IMG/VR virus record: IMGVR_UViG_3300036770_000877
Coordinates: 32,001 to 96,000 of that record
Source: a virus
Length of the DNA: 64,000 bases
Strand: one strand, 5' to 3'
Position numbers and translations under genes: made by a program. Below the pieces are notes generated by a model, which had not been told where the DNA came from, did no database searches, and was given only the letters and a program-made list of their open reading frames with translations. Positions 29,793-61,922 of this stretch are shown here, piece by piece (position 1 is the stretch's first letter; each line of letters opens with the position of its first letter).

Positions 29793-31196
29793 TTATACCC
29801 TAACAGCGTATGAAGGAACAGTAATCTGTGATTGTGTTTGTGCAACTAAATAATAGTTGCTATTCTCTGTATAGTGTGCATATTGTGTTGCGCTTCCAGG
29901 TGTCTTTGCAACATTAAGAACTGGTGTTGGAGCCCAATACTGTGGTTTTTCAACTGGTGTTGGAAGGAATCCTGTAGCGATATAATCAGCCTTTGAATAC
30001 TTGTTATTAAACTTATCATACAAGTGTGTGGCATCTTCGTGGTATGTTCTACCATTCATGTGTCCGAGGGTAGTAAATGATGGTCCCTCTGAGAGCCCGA
30101 CGGTCTTAAAGTTCTTAATAGTTGTATATGAGTTAGTTGCTGGGTCGTAATATCCAAACCAGTAGTCAAATAAGACTCTTGATCCCTTATCTACTGCTGT
30201 ATAACGAGCACCTGAAATATAAACCTTACCCTGATAGGTAAAGATAAATGTTTCGTCTGCAGAAACTGACGGGAACCCATTCATCTTAGCAATTGGAGAC
30301 CATGTATTTGTAGTACCATTCCACTTATAGGCTAGATTTCCATAGTAATGAGATGTAGGAACATTTGATGTTTCTAAATAGTGCTGTCCAAATGTGTAGA
30401 CATTTCCGTCTCCAGGAGCAGCCATAAGAATATTCATTGTATTTAATGAGTCTGGGTATGCAGCCTTTGCTGTTTGAGTAAATGAATGTGTTGACATATC
30501 TTTTTCAATAAATGTTGTATACATTGTCTGGCTATGAGATTGAACTCCACCGCTTGAATTGTATACGCCGCCGCCAATGACATAAACTTTATTGTTTACA
30601 TAATCATGTGCAAATGAAGCACCACGATAGTTATTTGAATATAAATCTTGTGAAGCAAATGTTGAGCAGTTTACTACCTTACCAGCATAGTAAGCATTTG
30701 TAGATACATTATATGTAGGGTATGTCCATGCATAGTCAGTCCCGCCAACATTTCTTGTTGTAATAGTATTTGTTAGCTGAGTTGCTGGGGTTGTAGGAAT
30801 AGTAATGCTTGGTGTAGTATTAGTATTTGAACTAAGACCAGAAGCTACTGTAGCATTTGAGTTTGCTGGCCAGTAGATATAATCGCTATCGCTAACAAGA
30901 ATTATCTTTGCCCATTGCTTTGATGGGTTAAAGTTAAATGTAGTAGTTAGGTCTGGGTTTTCAAAAGACTCGTCAATTACGTTTCCGTCGCCATCTAAAA
31001 TATTAATATAGGCAACATTTGTAGGATTTGCTCCTGTAAATGTTAGGTTATAAATACCAGCATTTACAAGCATACCTACGTTAAGAATAAATATTCTTTG
31101 TTTGATTTGTGTTGATGTAGATGGGGCCTTAAACGTCAAAGTACCGCCTAGTGCGGGTAAGGAGTTTTTAGATACTAGATCTAAGGTTACTGCCAT
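29793..31196 (-). CDS. Kelch-like beta-propeller virion/receptor-binding protein
   Basis: KVYVIGGG, NVYTFG..YKWNGTTNTWSPIAKM, KVYISG..YDPATNSY. Confidence 0.65.
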   Translation of the reverse strand: MAVTLDLVSKNSLPALGGTLTFKAPSTSTQIKQRIFILNVGMLVNAGIYNLTFTGANPTNVAYINILDGDGNVIDESFENPDLTTTFNFNPSKQWAKIILVSDSDYIYWPANSNATVASGLSSNTNTTPSITIPTTPATQLTNTITTRNVGGTDYAWTYPTYNVSTNAYYAGKVVNCSTFASQDLYSNNYRGASFAHDYVNNKVYVIGGGVYNSSGGVQSHSQTMYTTFIEKDMSTHSFTQTAKAAYPDSLNTMNILMAAPGDGNVYTFGQHYLETSNVPTSHYYGNLAYKWNGTTNTWSPIAKMNGFPSVSADETFIFTYQGKVYISGARYTAVDKGSRVLFDYWFGYYDPATNSYTTIKNFKTVGLSEGPSFTTLGHMNGRTYHEDATHLYDKFNNKYSKADYIATGFLPTPVEKPQYWAPTPVLNVAKTPGSATQYAHYTENSNYYLVAQTQSQITVPSYAVRV

Positions 31197-40885: not shown

Positions 40886-41054
40886 ATATTTTGTCACATT
40901 GAATCTGGAAGTGGATATTAATAAGTATGACAACATAGAGGCCATAGTCGACTCTTTTGACCTAATCGGTTCTGCTGAAAACACAGAAGTGTTAGATGTT
41001 AGTTACGAGAAGGAAGAAGAGTTTGAAGATGACTTCGAAGAAGAAGAATATTAA
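40878..41054 (+). CDS. Acidic hypothetical protein
   Basis: GGAGG RBS before ATG 40878. Confidence 0.55.
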   Translation: MPKYFVTLNLEVDINKYDNIEAIVDSFDLIGSAENTEVLDVSYEKEEEFEDDFEEEEY

Positions 41055-41094
41055 AAAATAATCCCCCAGGATTTCTCCTAGGGGATTATTTTTT
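41053..41094. terminator. Bidirectional intrinsic terminator
   Basis: AAAAAATAATCCCC..GGGGATTATTTTTT between convergent genes. Confidence 0.8.
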
Positions 41095-41102
41095 AGAGCT
41101 TA

Positions 41103-41900
41103 TTAGCCCTTTAGAGCCTTGAATGTTTTTTGATCAACAATACCAGTCTCTGGAAGACCTTTGGCCTTCTGAAATGCTTTTACAGCCTTTTCTGTTACTG
41201 GACCAAAGTCTCCGTCATCCTTAAGTTTTAGAGCCGCTTGAACAACTTTTACTTTTTGTCCTTTAGATCCAACTTTTAGATTAACAAACTCCTTTGGCGC
41301 AGCAGGTGCTGCTGGTTTAGCTGGTTTAGCAGGTGTTGCAGAAGTATCAGAAGATCCAACCTTAGACAATAGCGGTAGGTTTTCTTCGCCAGCATATACT
41401 GGACGACCCCAACCAACTACAGCATTAATTAGCTTCTTCTTGTTATTCTTTACATATGCACGAGTTTTCTCTACGCACATACCACCGTTACGCTGATCCC
41501 CTTTAGCAGTTCCTGAAGTATTTCCTTCAATGACTTGGATTGTTCCATCGCCATTATTTTTAATACAAAGACCTACGTGTGAAATACGATTTACTCCATC
41601 ATCTGGGAAATCGAAATAAATCCAGTCTCCTGGAGTAGGATCATCGTTACGAGCATCTGCCCAACGATTATTTTTCTTAAACCAATCAGACGCTGCAATT
41701 GTTGCAGCAGTTTTAGGGTACTTCTTTGGATCTAGTCCAGAAGTAAATGCACACCAAGAAACAAATGATTGGCACCATGGAAGAAAGTTTGCACCTGTCC
41801 ACTTTCCATACTTTGTCTCGTTGTCTTTAGGACCTTCAATAGTCCCAACTTCCTTTTTAGCAATTTCAATAATTGCTTCTAAAGATCCCTTTGTTGCCAC
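41103..41900 (-). CDS. Endolysin: CHAP amidase plus PG_binding_1 domain
   Basis: PWCQSFVSW, SHVGL, IEGNTS; C-terminal DGDFGPVTEKAVKAFQKAKGL..GIVDQKT. Confidence 0.9.
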   Translation of the reverse strand: MATKGSLEAIIEIAKKEVGTIEGPKDNETKYGKWTGANFLPWCQSFVSWCAFTSGLDPKKYPKTAATIAASDWFKKNNRWADARNDDPTPGDWIYFDFPDDGVNRISHVGLCIKNNGDGTIQVIEGNTSGTAKGDQRNGGMCVEKTRAYVKNNKKKLINAVVGWGRPVYAGEENLPLLSKVGSSDTSATPAKPAKPAAPAAPKEFVNLKVGSKGQKVKVVQAALKLKDDGDFGPVTEKAVKAFQKAKGLPETGIVDQKTFKALKG

Positions 41901-41902
41901 TA

Positions 41903-42214
41903 CTACTTCACCGTCTTCTTAGATGCTGTTTTCTTAGCTGCTGATGTAGACGCTGCTGTCTGTAGTTTCTTTGTTGCTTCTGCAGCAACTGATGTTGCTA
42001 CACGACCAAATGCTGGGTCCTTCTTATTCGCCCAACGGATTAATGTTGGAACGGCAGATGACCAAAGAGCATTTGCTACTAGTAACCATTCAGATGCACC
42101 AAAATCAACTGGTGATCCGACATTAGCTGTTTGCATTACGATTACAATAGCACCTACTACTTGACCAGCAAGGTTACGTGCATATGAATCTAGCATTGCT
42201 TTATTGATTGACAT
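41903..42214 (-). CDS. Putative holin
   Basis: Two hydrophobic segments, RWANKKDPAFG, basic tail; adjacent to the endolysin. Confidence 0.65.
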   Translation of the reverse strand: MSINKAMLDSYARNLAGQVVGAIVIVMQTANVGSPVDFGASEWLLVANALWSSAVPTLIRWANKKDPAFGRVATSVAAEATKKLQTAASTSAAKKTASKKTVK

Positions 42215-42270
42215 ATATGTTTTCTCCTTCTAATATCCTCAATGGATATTATATATTGTATCAGATAAAT

Positions 42271-42367
42271 AAAAAATGAGCAGTTTACATGGCCATGCTC
42301 AGGGCCCTTATGCCCGCACTAAGCTATCCGCAAGAAAGGTAGAACGGAAAGTAACACGGCGGTGCAC
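42271..42367 (-). ncRNA. Candidate ~95-nt small RNA (anti-SD loop plus 3' pseudoknot)
   Basis: Own -10 TATAAT (42374-42379); hairpin with loop UCUACCUUUCUU; H-type pseudoknot GGCC-CUGAGCAU-GGCC..AAACUGCUCA; U-tract. Confidence 0.55.
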
Positions 42368-42381
42368 ATATTAATTATAGC

Positions 42382-42804
42382 CTATTTTATTTTAATTTGT
42401 CTAGGCTTTTTCTCTTCTGGAATTTCTCTTTTTAGAACTACATAGAGAATTCCATCATTGTAGTCAGCAGAATCTACTTCCCAATACTCCCAAAGAGTAA
42501 TAGTTTTAGCAAACTTCCGAGTTGCAATACCCTTATGTAGGTACTTTGGCTCTTCTTCCTGCTTTTCTTTTTCTCCTGAGATAGTTACAACATCGTCTTC
42601 GATCTTGATGGTTAGCTCGTCCTTTGCAAAACCAGCGGTAGCTAGTTCAAGGACACGAGTATCCTCATCGATTTCTCTGATATTAAATGGCGGGTATGAA
42701 TCCTGCCATGATGTTGCCGTAGTAGTCCATGTTTGATTCCATAACTGATCTACGAACTTGAATGGGTCATAAATGCTGACCATTGAGTTATTGTAATTTA
42801 CCAT
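42382..42804 (-). CDS. hsp20: Small heat-shock protein (Hsp20/alpha-crystallin)
   Basis: YPPFNI, LELATAGF, YLHKGIATRKF, DGILYV.L.REIPEEKKPR.I.I. Confidence 0.95.
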   Translation of the reverse strand: MVNYNNSMVSIYDPFKFVDQLWNQTWTTTATSWQDSYPPFNIREIDEDTRVLELATAGFAKDELTIKIEDDVVTISGEKEKQEEEPKYLHKGIATRKFAKTITLWEYWEVDSADYNDGILYVVLKREIPEEKKPRQIKIK

Positions 42805-50185: not shown

Positions 50186-50335
50186 ATGGCTAAGACACCA
50201 AAAATCGGTGAAACCATTACAACTGCTCAGAGCAAAGTTTCTGGCGTTGTAAAGGAAGTCGTAAAGAACCCATCTGGCTCGGTGCGTGTTCGTCTTGATG
50301 TAGAGGGCGAAACTCGCTGGACTACTATCAAGTAG
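50186..50335 (+). CDS. Early small SH3-like protein (49 aa)
   Basis: KIGETITTAQSKVSGVVKEV..RWTTIK; resembles 50948-51130. Confidence 0.6.
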   Translation: MAKTPKIGETITTAQSKVSGVVKEVVKNPSGSVRVRLDVEGETRWTTIK

Positions 50336-50350
50336 TTTATCAGATAAAAC

Positions 50351-50381
50351 TGACCTGAGCAAGTCAATGCTAAACTGCTCA
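50351..50381 (+). ncRNA. H-type pseudoknot element (second copy)
   Basis: TGAC-CTGAGCAA-GTCA-ATGC-TAAACTGCTCA. Confidence 0.5.
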
Positions 50382-50442: not shown

Positions 50443-50865
50443 ATGGCAAGAAACGGCAAGGCGATAAATGTAAAAATCGCTACAACCAAAGTAATCAAGG
50501 CACTTGAGGGTGCGTTGGCTAAATTGGAAACTGAGTATGCTTCACAAGAAGCAAACGAGGCTAAGTATGAAAAGGCTCGTAAGGCTTGGGCTAAAGAAGT
50601 GGGTAAGTTAGCACTTGCTCAAATCTCAAAGGCAGAGAACCTAACTGCTTCTAAACGCTACAACAACGAGGTAAATGTTGATTTCAACTTACCTGCTGGA
50701 ACTATCGTTCTACCTGATGAACCTAAAAAGGATTTCACCACAATGAACGAGTGGAACTATCGTGAGCAGAAAGAGGAAATTGAGAACGCTATTCGTATTC
50801 TCAAGATGACCGACGAGGAAGTCGTTTCCACTTCAACTTACAACGCTATCGCTAGATACTTGTAA
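50443..50865 (+). CDS. Early hypothetical protein
   Basis: AGAAAGGA RBS; 140 aa. Confidence 0.75.
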   Translation: MARNGKAINVKIATTKVIKALEGALAKLETEYASQEANEAKYEKARKAWAKEVGKLALAQISKAENLTASKRYNNEVNVDFNLPAGTIVLPDEPKKDFTTMNEWNYREQKEEIENAIRILKMTDEEVVSTSTYNAIARYL

Positions 50866-52528: not shown

Positions 52529-52559
52529 GGGGGCGCAGAAATGCGCCCCCTATTTTTTT
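52529..52559 (+). terminator. Intrinsic terminator
   Basis: GGGGGCGCA-GAAA-TGCGCCCCC followed by TATTTTTTT. Confidence 0.85.
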
Positions 52560-52714
52560 GATCTAAAGCTCGGCGTGTTGATTTGACAAAACAAGTTTTG
52601 CGGGGCGGGTCTGACTGTTTATTTTATCATTACGTCACAAGTTAAAAATGCCCTGGAATTTGCAGGATGTCAGTCCCATGGTGTAGTATTGTATTAAGGA
52701 TAGAAAGGTAGATT

Positions 52715-52924
52715 ATGAGTTGGCAATTAGAAGCCAGTTGCAGCGAGGACCAGCATGACTTGTTTTTCTCGCAGGCTAAAGGTAAAATGGATAGAGCAAT
52801 ACAAATTTGTGGCTCGTGCTCTGTAAAGGGTGAGTGTCTTAAGTTTGCTATTGATGAAAAAGTAGAGTTCGGCATATTCGGTGGTCTCACACCGCAAGAG
52901 AGGAAAAAGAAATGGCTGATATGA
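52715..52924 (+). CDS. whiB: WhiB-family Fe-S transcription factor
   Basis: W..EASC..DLFF..AIQICGSCSVKGECLKFA..FGIFGGLTPQER. Confidence 0.92.
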   Translation: MSWQLEASCSEDQHDLFFSQAKGKMDRAIQICGSCSVKGECLKFAIDEKVEFGIFGGLTPQERKKKWLI

Positions 52925-55033: not shown

Positions 55034-55062
55034 ATATCCACTACTAAGAAAGGTAGGCCCCC

Positions 55063-55827
55063 ATGCCAAATTGGGTATATAACACTTTGACCATACAAGG
55101 TCCTAAAGAGGAAATTGATTCAATTAAAGAAAGATTGAATCGTCCTTTTACACTAGCGCAAGAGACATTCGGAATGGGCGATATTAGTTCATCTGGATTC
55201 CCGACTAAAATCACACAGGTAAGTTATTCTAATCCTGTATTTTCATTTCATAATATCCATTCGTATAAGGACGAAGGCATTACTGATGAAGAGTATGCCT
55301 GCCAGCCTGACCGTAGTGGTGTAGATATGAATGACCCTGACTGGTTCCGCAAGTCTGTTGAGTTTGCTAAAACTCAAAAGGATTGGTATTCATGGAACAA
55401 CTCCAACTGGGGCACCAAATGGGATGTCGCAGTTCGTGATGATGACGAATATCCAAATACTGAGTTACTTGAGTATAAGTCAGAGGGTCATGACAACTGG
55501 CTTGTATACAAGTACGAGACTGCTTGGTCACCTGCAGTAACTATCTTAACTAAACTATCTAACTTGGTTCCTAACTCTCTCCTTACACTGGAGTATGAAG
55601 AGGAACAAGGTTGGGGCGGAGAACTAGAAATTCTTCGTGGTGATGTTAAAACAATTCTAGAATATGAAACTCGTTGCTATGCATGTCAATCTTATGACTG
55701 TGTTGAGTATTGTGAGAATGACTGTGGTCAATTCTGCTCTGAATGCAATGAGGGTTCATGGCGAGATGAAGAAGCAATGGCAGAATGCGAAGAGCACAAG
55801 CCTTTACTTGAAAAGGTAGAGGTGTAA
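55063..55827 (+). CDS. DUF1281/YubB ferredoxin-like domain protein
   Basis: MPNWVYNTLTI.G, WYSWN..NWGTKWD, YETAWSP, LEYEEE.GWGG; Cys-rich tail. Confidence 0.8.
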   Translation: MPNWVYNTLTIQGPKEEIDSIKERLNRPFTLAQETFGMGDISSSGFPTKITQVSYSNPVFSFHNIHSYKDEGITDEEYACQPDRSGVDMNDPDWFRKSVEFAKTQKDWYSWNNSNWGTKWDVAVRDDDEYPNTELLEYKSEGHDNWLVYKYETAWSPAVTILTKLSNLVPNSLLTLEYEEEQGWGGELEILRGDVKTILEYETRCYACQSYDCVEYCENDCGQFCSECNEGSWRDEEAMAECEEHKPLLEKVEV

Positions 55828-61483: not shown

Positions 61484-61922
61484 ATTTCATTTGAATGTAG
61501 CATACAAACCAGCCAACAGCAAAACCTGCTAGCAACCACAATGGGTGTAGGTAAGTAACGTCCATTACTTGTGCTCCTTTAATATATGATTGTTTAATGT
61601 CATGTGTGCAAAACCTGAGCGTACCTCGATATCACGATTACACTTAGGGCATGTAACTAATCTACTGCTAGCCATATCTACCATTTCTCTAGTGGACAAC
61701 TGTTATATATATATTGTACAAGATATTCACCAGATTGTCTACACCTTCCGTCCTTTAATATAAATAAAGGACATTCTAAGCATATCTCTGTGCGCTTATC
61801 TAGCTCATCAAATGTTATATTCATCGTCTTCTTCATCTGAGAAGTCAAAATCTACTTCTTTAAAAGCGTCCATAATAGACATTACGACGAAGTAAACTGC
61901 CCCTCCCAAGATTGCGAAGATG

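What the first reader, a model, noticed from the sequence alone, without database searches (positions are those of the whole stretch)
42271..42367. Candidate small RNA presenting an anti-Shine-Dalgarno loop
Seen: own -10 (TATAAT 42374-42379, with TAGACA 18 bp upstream inside the hsp20 3' end); stem UCCGU/GCGGA closing the 12-nt loop UCUACCUUUCUU; 3' pseudoknot and U-tract. The loop is complementary over 11 nt to the RBS of whiB (AGAAAGGTAGA, 52702) and of the DUF1281 gene (AAGAAAGGTAG, about 55047). Established: actinobacterial 16S rRNA ends in ..CCUUUCU. Inference: a 16S-tail mimic that silences AGAAAGG-led early or host mRNAs while sparing leaderless genes.
Basis: partly seen in the sequence, partly recalled or inferred. 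Interest (0 to 1): 0.7.

Follow-up and report, generated by a model that had tools for sequence, protein, structure and literature searches.

The report
Pseudoknot-capped phage small RNA, 16S-like loop
A lake phage of actinobacteria carries a real gene for a folded RNA of about 97 bases: it ends in a knot-like fold shared by well over a hundred phage contigs, and its tip copies the end of ribosomal RNA, so it may block ribosome-binding sites, though that job is untested.

Summary
On the minus strand, 42367 to 42271, a near-consensus promoter (TAGACA-N18-TATAAT) precedes a 97-nt RNA. It consists of a long 5' hairpin (P1 closing P2) tipped by the loop UCUACCUUUCUU, then an H-type pseudoknot abutting U6. 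It matches no Rfam family and no conserved ORF.

1. The pseudoknot is the constant module of a large family found almost only in phages: at least 118 IMG/VR stretches against 6 hits in 185,579 genomes. Both stems covary. A second copy lies at 50351-50381. Earlier notes of this scan describe a similar pseudoknot placed after stop codons in other phages.

2. The CU-rich loop is a second, portable module (UUCWWCCUUUCUU). It is invariant in 20 variants at three different loci while the stems covary. However, sister lineages replace it with UUCG or lack P2 entirely.

3. The whiB and DUF1281 ribosome-binding sites are the two best predicted partners of 266 start regions. Orthologous sites in relatives without the loop lack the match. 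Even so, composition-matched shuffled loops reach 11 nt in 23% of trials.

Verdict: a real, uncatalogued, pseudoknot-capped phage small RNA. Anti-Shine-Dalgarno action is plausible (about 0.3) but unproven. A purely cis role as a boundary or stability element is the main rival.

The parts
42398..42403 (-). -35 hexamer TAGACA of the small-RNA promoter, inside the last codons of hsp20
   Evidence: An equivalent -35 sits in non-coding or different upstream sequence in L185 (TAGACA-N17-TATACT) and L159 (TGGACA-N18-TATAAT).
42374..42379 (-). -10 hexamer TATAAT; the conserved RNA sequence begins 6 nt downstream
   Evidence: TATAAT or TATACT is kept in all 13 variants, always 6-7 nt before GUGC.
42271..42367 (-). 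The predicted 97-nt small RNA, from GUGC to the end of the U-tract
   Evidence: GC about 0.5 against 0.38-0.40 around it. No Rfam match. No conserved ORF on either strand.
42310..42367 (-). 5' domain. P1 is GUGC-A-CCGC (42367-42359) paired with GCGG-GCAU (42317-42310); it closes the variable P2.
   Evidence: MFE folds of 13 variants all give P1. The distal 4 bp read CCGC/GCGG, CUAA/UUAG, UCUA/UAGA, CCU/AGG, UUUUC/GAAAA, CCAC/GUGG.
42327..42348 (-). Apical hairpin P2b, stem UCCGU/GCGGA, with the CU-rich loop. The conserved 13-nt motif UUCUACCUUUCUU is at 42344-42332.
   Evidence: The loop is invariant at 11 positions in 20 variants, and 9 of 10 stem pairs change on both sides.
42277..42306 (-). 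H-type pseudoknot. S1 42306-42303 with 42294-42291; L1 C42302; S2 42301-42296 with 42282-42277; L3 AUGUAAAC 42290-42283.
42271..42276 (-). U6 tract directly abutting S2; presumed transcript end
   Evidence: A T-rich tail follows the pseudoknot in about 52% of 114 unique instances.
42255..42263 (-). Extended -10-like TGATACAAT, the likely separate promoter of the 103-aa gene
   Evidence: Conserved as TGATACAAT or TGATAGAAT in relatives. Absent in L147, L185 and L260, where the RNA runs straight into the next gene's RBS.
42231..42247 (-). Covarying hairpin at the 5' end of the downstream mRNA leader (AUAUCC..GGAUAU), just before RBS GAAGGAG
   Evidence: AUAUCC/GGAUAU becomes GUGUC/GACAC or GUGCUG/CAGCAC in relatives.
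42382..42804 (-). hsp20 gene immediately upstream
   Evidence: Pfam HSP20, E 3.5e-18.
41103..42214 (-). Downstream genes: a 103-aa gene of unknown family and a CHAP plus PG_binding_1 endolysin. A strong terminator at 41095-41052 closes the unit.
50351..50381 (+). Second copy of the pseudoknot (S1 UGAC/GUCA). It lies 15 nt after the stop of a 49-aa ORF and before a TGTCGG-N10-TAGAAT promoter.
52701..52713 (+). whiB start region, complementary to the loop over 11 nt (ATG at 52715)
55046..55058 (+). DUF1281_C gene start region, complementary to the loop over 11 nt plus a G-U pair (ATG at 55063)

Best explanation
The stretch is a genuine small non-coding RNA gene of a freshwater actinophage (the record encodes WhiB). 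A near-consensus sigma-70-type promoter inside the end of hsp20 starts transcription at about G42367. The first 58 nt fold into a long hairpin, P1 closing P2, whose tip displays a 12-13-nt CU-rich loop. The last 30 nt fold into a compact H-type pseudoknot. Its second stem abuts U6, so it most likely both ends the transcript and caps its 3' end against decay. The pseudoknot is the constant module of a large, uncatalogued family found almost only in phages. The CU loop (UUCWWCCUUUCUU) is a second, portable module that copies the last 7-8 nt of 16S rRNA. Its most likely action is antisense pairing with AGAAAGG-type ribosome-binding sites, in this phage best with whiB and the DUF1281 gene, which would hinder 30S binding. 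Shown: promoter and terminator motifs, helices with covariation, loop conservation, complementarity. Inferred: that the transcript is discrete, that the pseudoknot terminates or protects it, and that the loop represses translation. My odds by layer: real structured RNA 0.95; own transcript 0.75; pseudoknot as terminator or 3' cap 0.6; loop acts by SD pairing 0.3-0.35; whiB/DUF1281 as specific targets 0.25.
For: Promoter: 11 of 12 consensus matches. It is kept in 13 variants, including ones where the -35 lies in non-coding or unrelated sequence. P1: six complementary sequence versions, and each variant folds P1 on its own. Pseudoknot: 122 sequences, 95.1% paired, covariation 0.246 against 0.062 (0 of 500 shuffles reach it), slid controls 0.054 or less. 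S1 shows four Watson-Crick pair types at two positions. S2 shows G-C to A-U in 7 sequences. The two window copies were never matched in 100 shuffles. Phage bias: at least 118 viral stretches against 6 hits in 185,579 genomes. Position: always 12-85 nt after a co-oriented stop codon, with a T-rich tail in about half. CU loop: present in 20 of 148 unique contexts against a background of 0.002 per 75 nt, always in the apical loop; it is invariant while 9 of 10 stem pairs change on both sides, covariation 0.597 against 0.240, 0 of 500. Targets: loop duplexes of -15.7 (whiB) and -15.3 kcal/mol (DUF1281) rank 1 and 2 of 266 start regions (mean -4.6, sd 3.1). They exceed the 16S-tail duplexes at the same sites, -9.7 and -12.5. 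In loop-less relatives G001 and G003, whiB appears leaderless and the DUF1281 RBS is an ordinary AGAAGGAAG or AGAAAGGAAU. There is no conserved ORF on either strand.
Against: The loop is dispensable. Orthologous RNAs carry UUCG, CCCC-AG-GGGG or other loops, or only a pentaloop on P1, and the complete sister genome G001 has no such loop anywhere. Composition-matched shuffled loops reach 11 nt or more in 23% of trials, and 3 or more sites of at least 10 nt in 18%. Phages with the related loop UCAUCCUUUCUU have no extended target beyond the ordinary RBS. The base after GAAAGG does not shift genome-wide with the loop variant. The relatives that keep the whiB site are near-identical, so the co-occurrence rests on very few independent lineages. 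In L147, L185 and L260 the same promoter-P1-pseudoknot unit runs straight into the next gene's RBS with no U-tract, which looks like a 5' leader rather than a free small RNA. S2 as a terminator stem has a 14-nt interior, and the terminator scan did not call it. There are no expression data.
Confidence: 0.45

Rival explanations
1. It is a cis-acting gene-boundary module with no trans target. The hairpin plus pseudoknot ends and insulates the hsp20 unit from the lysis genes. It also shields transcript ends from exonucleases, as a 3' cap for upstream messages and a 5' stabiliser where it heads a leader. The short promoter-driven RNA is then a by-product, or serves only to load the boundary. The CU loop would serve folding or a protein, for example a loop-loop contact.
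For: The pseudoknot, not the loop, is the conserved part. It lies 12-85 nt after a co-oriented stop codon in essentially all of 114 unique instances, while the distance to the next gene varies widely. It follows hsp20 without any internal promoter in L178. It occurs as a 5' leader in L147, L185, L260 and the L179 type. In the L177-type RNAs, an upstream hairpin loop UUCAUGAAAGG is complementary to the CU loop over 6-7 nt, which suggests an intramolecular contact. Earlier notes of this scan reached a similar reading for a related pseudoknot placed after stop codons. The coremin element (xrRNA-C), which shares the topology and a UAAAC linker, blocks an exonuclease (PMC10321173).
Against: A strong promoter kept exactly 6-7 nt before P1 in 13 variants is hard to explain for a pure boundary element. 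The 13-nt loop is invariant across 11 different stems, and at two of its three loci it has no partner loop. Ordinary strong terminators are available in the same phage. I found no significant pairing between the RNA and the downstream start region.
Confidence: 0.33
2. It is a protein decoy. The loop mimics the single-stranded 3' tail of 16S rRNA in order to occupy a protein that binds or cuts that tail. Candidates are a MazF-type toxin that removes the anti-SD, a maturation RNase, or ribosomal protein S1. On this reading the RNA protects ribosomes or diverts the factor during infection.
For: The loop shares CCUUUCU with the 16S end. Actinobacterial MazF toxins that cut at the 16S tail exist; MazF-mt11 cuts C|ACCU 11 nt from the end (PMC12274833). 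The loop is displayed unpaired on a very stable scaffold. The lack of extended mRNA targets in the L177-type phages fits a protein ligand.
Against: The window loop reads UACCU, not the CACCU consensus. The core anti-SD CCUCC is missing from the loop. No such toxin or partner protein was identified here. This is speculation from resemblance only.
Confidence: 0.07
3. It is a late-leader or antitermination element. This would be a constitutively made, terminated leader before the lysis genes, like lambda PR'-6S-tR', or a polymerase-modifying RNA like HK022 put. A factor or the RNA itself would let polymerase read on.
For: A strong promoter, a short structured RNA and a U-tract lie directly upstream of the 103-aa gene and the endolysin. 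There is one copy on each arm of the divergent region.
Against: The downstream gene has its own conserved extended -10 and a 5' hairpin. The unit holds only two genes and is closed by a strong terminator at 41095-41052, so no long operon needs processive antitermination. The element sits after many unrelated genes. I found no similarity to put, nut or EAR in Rfam.
Confidence: 0.05
4. It is not an RNA element at all, but a small protein gene, a DNA-level binding site or a chance fold.
For: A 32-codon ORF lies on the plus strand at 42276-42374. The single-sequence fold energy is unremarkable.
Against: ORFs on either strand change frame, length and sequence among variants. Compensatory changes occur in four helices, two of them crossing each other, which a dimeric DNA site would not give.
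Confidence: 0.02

Closest known systems
Widespread phage pseudoknot after stop codons, as noted earlier in this scan (e1-5955828, e1-370971, e1-6006863; promoter-driven form e1-5976615). Uncatalogued.
   Same: Compact H-type pseudoknot with a 4-bp covarying S1. A linker ending in UAAAC. Placed shortly after a co-oriented stop codon. Nearly confined to phages. Sometimes adjacent to tRNA genes (L275, L278). Absent from Rfam.
   Different: Those notes describe units of 27-31 nt. Here the S1 loop is 8-9 nt and S2 is 5-6 bp of fixed sequence (UGAGCA/UGCUCA). I could not compare sequences directly: a look-up by shared words found only this genome. Same family or sister family is therefore open.
Coremin motif (xrRNA-C) and its Watson-Crick variant, from plant and other RNA viruses (PMC10321173)
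   Same: A small hairpin. Then a G(U)UAAAC-type linker. Then a short segment that pairs with the hairpin loop, giving an H-type topology with a 1-nt L1.
   Different: Coremin has a 4-nt YGAD loop, a 3-bp S2, a CUAC spacer and a required downstream hairpin. Here the loop is 8-9 nt, S2 is 5-6 bp, and the obligatory hairpin lies upstream with a U-tract or RBS downstream. Exonuclease resistance is untested, and the relevant bacterial enzymes differ (RNase J, PNPase).
Gram-positive base-pairing small RNAs that use C- or CU-rich loops against Shine-Dalgarno regions (S. aureus RNAIII and RsaE; actinobacterial 6C RNA, Rfam). From my own knowledge.
   Same: Own promoter and terminator. An unpaired pyrimidine-rich loop complementary to ribosome-binding sites. 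No Hfq-type motif needed.
   Different: No sequence or structure match to 6C or any other Rfam family. The gene is phage-encoded. The 3' end is a pseudoknot rather than a plain hairpin. The loop is present in only part of the family.
Intrinsic (Rho-independent) terminator
   Same: A helix (S2, 6 bp) directly followed by U6, at the end of a transcription unit and before the next promoter.
   Different: The 'loop' of that helix is 14 nt and pairs with upstream sequence to form a pseudoknot. The sequence is conserved rather than free. Half of the family members lack the U-tract. The consensus scan did not call it.
Lambda PR' 6S leader/qut, HK022 put, lambda nut boxB
   Same: A short promoter-proximal structured RNA in front of lysis genes, with one copy on each arm. 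The S1 hairpin GGCC-CUGAGCAU-GGCC loosely recalls boxB GCCCUGAAGAAGGGC (from memory).
   Different: No long operon lies downstream. The next gene has its own promoter. The element occurs after many unrelated genes. The pseudoknot pairing of the loop is supported by covariation, which a boxB-type pentaloop would not allow.

Membership tests
Phage hairpin-plus-pseudoknot family (uncatalogued; defined here by alignment A2) | 4-bp S1 that covaries | tested here: met
   G-C, U-A, C-G and A-U at pair 1. A-U, C-G and U-A at pair 3. 96.7% of cells paired. The window copies read GGCC/GGCC and UGAC/GUCA.
Phage hairpin-plus-pseudoknot family (uncatalogued; defined here by alignment A2) | S2 formed between the S1 loop (UGAGCA) and the 3' segment (UGCUCA), crossing S1 | tested here: met
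   94% of cells paired. G-C changes to A-U in 7 sequences, with G-U intermediates. The search patterns fixed part of these columns, so the support is thinner than for S1.
Phage hairpin-plus-pseudoknot family (uncatalogued; defined here by alignment A2) | Conserved L1 (C) and L3 (A-N2-4-UAAAC), with a variable hairpin immediately 5' | tested here: met
   Invariant columns in A2. An upstream hairpin is present in every context inspected.
Phage hairpin-plus-pseudoknot family (uncatalogued; defined here by alignment A2) | Position shortly after a co-oriented stop codon; found almost only in phages | tested here: met
   12-85 nt after the stop in nearly all of 114 unique instances. 6 hits in 185,579 genomes against at least 118 viral stretches.
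Trans-acting anti-SD small RNA (RNAIII / RsaE / 6C type) | Independent transcription unit (promoter, defined 5' end, terminator) | tested here: inconclusive
   The motifs are present and conserved. There are no expression data, and in some relatives the unit is a 5' leader.
Trans-acting anti-SD small RNA (RNAIII / RsaE / 6C type) | Unpaired pyrimidine-rich seed conserved among homologues | tested here: inconclusive
   Invariant in 20 variants at three loci, but missing from about half of the orthologous RNAs after hsp20.
Trans-acting anti-SD small RNA (RNAIII / RsaE / 6C type) | Complementarity to start regions beyond chance and conserved with the seed | tested here: inconclusive
   The two sites rank 1 and 2 of 266 and are absent from the orthologues in loop-less relatives. 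But the match is within composition-matched chance, and no extended targets exist in the L177-type phages.
Trans-acting anti-SD small RNA (RNAIII / RsaE / 6C type) | Repression of target translation | not testable with these tools
   Needs reporter fusions or toeprinting.
Any Rfam 15 family (including 6C, PreQ1, SAM-II, pistol, EAR, ROSE) | Covariance-model match | tested here: not met
   No hit at E up to 10 on 42100-42500. Only tRNA in the whole window. No hit at the motif in 15 related loci.
Coremin / xrRNA-C | hp1 with YGAD loop, GUUAAAC-CUAC spacer, downstream hp2, exonuclease stalling | tested here: not met
   The loop and spacer sequences differ and there is no downstream hairpin. The topology and the UAAAC linker are shared. 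Stalling cannot be tested here.
Intrinsic terminator | Stable G+C-rich hairpin with a short loop, followed by a U-tract | tested here: inconclusive
   U6 abuts S2. But the stem has 6 bp with a 14-nt interior and the scan does not call it. Only about 52% of family members have a T-rich tail.

The most novel reading that the evidence does not exclude
A family of phage small RNAs uses an exonuclease-proof scaffold: a hairpin at +1 and a pseudoknot terminator at the 3' end. On that scaffold it displays a copy of the 16S rRNA 3' tail. This free-floating anti-Shine-Dalgarno competes with ribosomes for AGAAAGG-type sites. In this phage the loop has drifted (UACC for AUCC) together with the whiB and DUF1281 start regions. 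It therefore binds these two messages better than the ribosome does and switches off the phage's own WhiB regulator, which relatives without the loop express from a leaderless message.
Probability: 0.25. Interest if true: 0.85.

Novelty: new variant of a known kind. Interest (0 to 1): 0.62.

Why it matters
Few phage-encoded regulatory RNAs are known, and I know of none for phages of the abundant freshwater actinobacteria. This locus offers three testable things.

1. A compact, sequence-conserved pseudoknot serves where a terminator or end-protecting hairpin would be expected. It is used by well over a hundred phage contigs and almost never by bacteria.

2. A modular design places a portable effector loop on that scaffold.

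3. A natural mimic of the 16S rRNA tail could show how a phage tunes Shine-Dalgarno-dependent translation in hosts where leaderless messages are common.

If the pseudoknot proves to be an efficient terminator or exonuclease block, it would also be a useful small part for RNA engineering in actinobacteria.

Tried and rejected
- **Rfam.** Gathering and permissive searches of the window, the locus and 15 related loci found nothing at the motif.
- **Phage GenBank collection.** blastn of the locus gave no match.
- **Thermodynamic signal.** z = -0.36, uninformative, because the key fold is a pseudoknot and P2 is weak.
- **Coding.** No ORF is conserved on either strand.
- **Pairing with the downstream start region.** The 5' domain paired with the 103-aa gene's start region gave z from +1 to -2.5 across 11 lineages, with no consistent site.
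- **Extra copies.** A covariance model with filters off and a generic UAAAC-pseudoknot scan found only the two copies, plus a 12-nt fragment inside a gene at 30660-30680 and a weak hit at 61864-61906 inside coding sequence. I judged both to be chance.
- **Extended targets of the related loop.** In five long phage records each has one perfect site, which is the RNA gene itself. The top predicted partners are simply strong ordinary RBSs.
- **Genome-wide shift of RBS sequence with the loop variant.** None found.
- **Scan for the loop 14-mer alone in viral contigs.** Swamped by unrelated hits and truncated, so uninformative.
- **Flanking proteins.** Pfam and PHROGs gave no clue to an RNA-binding partner.
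- **Literature.** Searches for the motif, for pseudoknots in actinophages and for phage anti-SD RNAs found no description.
The complement of the E. coli ...AGCUCCACCA end, recalled from memory, is not visible in this RNA, so I judged it a different family. No dedicated search was run.
Full report
**What is there.** The window is part of a 104.5-kb IMG/VR virus record, with 39% G+C. It has a long minus-strand block of structural and lysis genes and a plus-strand early region that encodes WhiB, DUF932, GP88 and a DUF1281_C protein. The finding lies on the minus strand between hsp20 (42804-42382; Pfam HSP20) and a 103-aa gene of unknown family (42214-41903). That gene is followed by a CHAP/PG_binding endolysin.

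Reading the minus strand gives, in order:
- TAGACA (42403-42398), an 18-nt spacer and TATAAT (42379-42374);
- six bases, then GUGC at 42367;
- a G+C-richer stretch of about 97 nt that ends in U6 (42276-42271);
- TGATACAAT, a small hairpin, GAAGGAG and the ATG of the 103-aa gene.

The promoter scores 11 of 12 and is among the four best in 40-58 kb.

**Is it a structured RNA?** The single-sequence fold energy is unremarkable (z = -0.36), and no Rfam family matches even at E = 10. The comparative evidence is decisive instead.

Homologues of hsp20 and of the 103-aa gene retrieved 134 viral loci. The intergenic region is recognisable in four sequence groups. A pattern scan and later scans added more, giving 13 distinct versions of the RNA.

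In every version TATAAT or TATACT lies 6-7 nt before GUGC. Every version folds on its own into P1 (GUGC, a bulged A in most versions, then four pairs) closing a variable P2. The four distal P1 pairs read CCGC/GCGG, CUAA/UUAG, UCUA/UAGA, CCU/AGG, UUUUC/GAAAA and CCAC/GUGG.

The promoter is also kept where its -35 lies in non-coding sequence (L185, L250, L260) or in unrelated sequence (L159). ORFs on either strand change frame, length and sequence among versions, so this is not a peptide gene.

**The pseudoknot is the conserved core and a widespread phage motif.** The 3' part reads GGCC-C-UGAGCA-U-GGCC-AUGUAAAC-UGCUCA.

A profile of this core found a second, weaker copy in the window at 50351-50381 on the plus strand. 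There S1 is UGAC/GUCA: four of its six differences from the first copy are two compensatory pairs. A degenerate pattern hits both window copies, with none in 100 shuffles. The whole virus record holds just these two copies.

On 122 distinct sequences (alignment A2) the crossing structure is 95.1% paired. The covariation score is 0.246 against 0.062 in shuffles (reached by 0 of 500) and at most 0.054 when partners are slid. S1 shows G-C, U-A, C-G and A-U at one position, and A-U, C-G and U-A at another. A scan that left S2 free found UAAGCA with UGCUUA, a G-C to A-U change, in seven sequences.

The search patterns fixed several columns, so S2 support is thinner than S1 support. Even so, both helices are supported, and because they cross, a protein-bound DNA palindrome is unlikely.

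**Context of the family.** In 114 unique instances the pseudoknot lies 12-85 nt after the stop codon of a co-oriented ORF, always behind a variable hairpin. The distance to the next gene ranges from 10 to several hundred nt. About 52% have a T-rich tail directly after S2.

Two types appear.
- **Type A**, the window's main copy, has the shorter L3 (AYGUAAAC in most). It commonly carries a U-tract and is then followed by a long regulatory spacer.
- **Type B**, the copy at 50351, has a longer L3 and often an RBS or a promoter soon after.

The flanking genes fall into a handful of conserved neighbourhoods: hsp20, a small RWTTWK-ending protein, a gene upstream of DUF932, and others. The number of independent contexts is therefore nearer ten than a hundred.

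The unit can also head a message. In L147, L185, L250 and L260 the same promoter-P1-pseudoknot runs into an RBS within about 20 nt, with no U-tract and no second promoter.

Ordinary strong terminators exist in the same phage, at 52529 on the plus strand and 41095 on the minus strand.

Earlier notes of this scan describe a similar pseudoknot placed after stop codons in other phages, and a promoter-driven small RNA with a pseudoknot cap in another lake actinophage. They name the plant-virus coremin element as the nearest relative. I read that paper (PMC10321173). The shared features are the small H-type topology, a 1-nt L1 and a G(U)UAAAC linker. The loop, the spacer and the required downstream hairpin differ.

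**The CU-rich loop.** The loop sits at the tip of P2, the variable part.
- Among the RNAs that follow hsp20, two lineages carry the identical UUCUACCUUUCUU on different stems, CCGU/GCGG and GGGGU/ACCCC.
- Other lineages have UUCG, CCCC-AG-GGGG or unrelated hairpins.
- The minimal form has only a pentaloop on P1.
- The complete sister genome G001 and two other relatives have no such loop anywhere.

By that measure the loop is an accessory. Across the wider family, however, 20 of 148 unique contexts carry UCNNCCUUUC within 75 nt upstream of the pseudoknot, against a background of 0.002 per 75 nt. In nearly all of them the predicted fold puts it in the apical loop of the hairpin just before the pseudoknot.

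Aligned (A3), the loop is invariant at 11 positions (UUC, two variable bases, CCUUUCUU). Nine of ten stem pairs change on both sides, with covariation 0.597 against 0.240, reached by 0 of 500 shuffles. These RNAs lie at three different loci: after hsp20, after a gene ending ..VDSIDI, and after a gene ending ..MKWVNVE.

The loop is thus a selected, portable module.

The loop shares CCUUUCU with the 16S 3' end. Mycobacterial 16S ends ..C|ACCUCCUUUCU (PMC12274833).

In the ..VDSIDI type, an extra upstream hairpin shows the loop UUCAUGAAAGG, complementary to the CU loop over 6-7 nt. This could be an intramolecular contact or an internal competitor.

**Targets.**
- AGAAAGG occurs 24 times in the window against 11 expected, mostly as the RBS of plus-strand early genes.
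- The complement of the loop matches 11 contiguous nt at the whiB start region (ATG 52715) and 11 nt plus a G-U pair at the DUF1281_C gene (ATG 55063).
- Among 266 start regions these two give the best predicted duplexes with the 12-nt loop, -15.7 and -15.3 kcal/mol (mean -4.6, sd 3.1). That is stronger than the 16S tail at the same sites, -9.7 and -12.5.
- In the loop-less relatives G001 and G003, whiB follows a TGTCAG-N10-TAnnnT promoter by 5-6 nt and so appears leaderless. The DUF1281 orthologue (about 85% identical) has an ordinary AGAAGGAAG or AGAAAGGAAU RBS. AGAAAGGTAG is absent from all 104 kb of G001.

That pattern is what co-evolution of seed and targets would give. The case remains weak for four reasons.
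- Shuffled loops of the same composition reach 11 nt or more in 23% of trials, and three or more sites of at least 10 nt in 18%.
- The only relative that keeps the whiB site is nearly identical to the window.
- Phages with the related loop UCAUCCUUUCUU have no extended site other than the RNA gene itself. Their top predicted partners are simply strong ordinary RBSs, with a GP88-like gene recurring.
- The base following GAAAGG does not shift genome-wide with the loop variant.

Pairing between the RNA and the start region of the gene downstream is not significant.

**Reading.** The RNA is real and has its own conserved promoter. It is built from a stable scaffold: a hairpin that starts at +1, and a pseudoknot whose second stem abuts U6.

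Three observations support this: it ends transcription units in both window copies, the U-tract touches S2, and the next promoter follows. That step is inferred.

The CU loop is the likely effector. Base pairing with AGAAAGG-type sites is the simplest mechanism and follows the precedent of Gram-positive small RNAs with pyrimidine-rich loops (my own knowledge). I put that at about 0.3, and the specific whiB/DUF1281 pair at about 0.25.

The main rival, at about 0.33, is that the whole unit is a cis-acting boundary and stability module and that the loop serves folding or a protein. A 16S-tail decoy for a protein, and a lambda-like late leader, are minor rivals. The late-leader idea is disfavoured because the downstream unit has its own promoter, holds only two genes and is closed by a strong terminator.

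**Novelty and score.** The family is absent from Rfam 15 and from the papers I could search, but this scan has met related pseudoknots before on other DNA.

New here:
- the modular anatomy (promoter, P1/P2, pseudoknot-U6);
- the demonstration that the 16S-like loop is a conserved portable module;
- the seed-target pattern at whiB and DUF1281.

I class it as a new variant of a known kind, a base-pairing small RNA with an unusual pseudoknot terminator, with interest 0.62.

Noticed in passing
window 50351-50381 (+): A second copy of the pseudoknot with a fully compensated S1 (UGAC/GUCA). It lies 15 nt after the stop of a 49-aa ORF (50186-50335) and before a TGTCGG-N10-TAGAAT promoter and the 140-aa gene at 50443. 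It is conserved in L146 and L155.
   Followed up: yes
L177:1032-1093, L199, L248, L258 and about 12 others: In another subfamily the CU-loop hairpin is preceded by a second covarying hairpin whose loop UUCAUGAAAGG (SD-like) is complementary to the CU loop over 6-7 nt. This is a possible loop-loop contact in a 3'-UTR RNA of about 130 nt that ends in the same pseudoknot.
   Followed up: partly
L345 and L346 around position 1500 (whiB of G003 and G001); window 52668-52715: whiB appears leaderless in two relatives (TGTCAG-N10-TAnnnT, then ATG after 5-6 nt). In the window it has a leader of about 21 nt with AGAAAGGTAGA.
   Followed up: partly
window 42231-42263 (-): A conserved extended -10 (TGATACAAT) is followed by a covarying hairpin at the very start of the leader of the 103-aa gene. 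This is the same 'hairpin at +1' design as the small RNA.
   Followed up: partly
window 41052-41095: A 20-bp perfect hairpin flanked by A- and T-runs lies after the endolysin gene. It looks like a strong bidirectional terminator closing the two-gene lysis unit.
   Followed up: no
L180, L184, L241, L257, L276 downstream of the pseudoknot: In many relatives the type A pseudoknot is followed by a spacer with tandem DnaA-box-like TGTGGATAAC repeats, GATC-rich stretches and TGTGA-N6-TCACA-like sites, upstream of a DUF932 gene. This is possibly an origin or early control region.
   Followed up: no
L275:1907-1943 and L278:3475-3510: The pseudoknot sits directly next to tRNA genes. A tRNA starts about 10 nt after it in L275, and a tRNA lies about 60 nt before its hairpin in L278.
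   Followed up: no
window 30660-30680 (-): An exact 12-nt GUAAACUGCUCA lies inside a coding region, without the rest of the pseudoknot. I judged it chance.
   Followed up: partly
L280-L285 (genome contigs): The six genome hits lie in metagenome-assembled bins of unrelated phyla. Several sit inside ORF-like sequence or on short contigs. They are probably mis-binned phage DNA or chance matches.
   Followed up: no
window 49105 start region; G006-G008: The GP88-like gene has an extended RBS (AAAGAAAGAAAGG..) and recurs among the best predicted partners of the CU loop in three other phages. In the window its RBS reads GGU where theirs read GGA, which matches the loop difference ACC versus UCC. This is a single observation.
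   Followed up: partly
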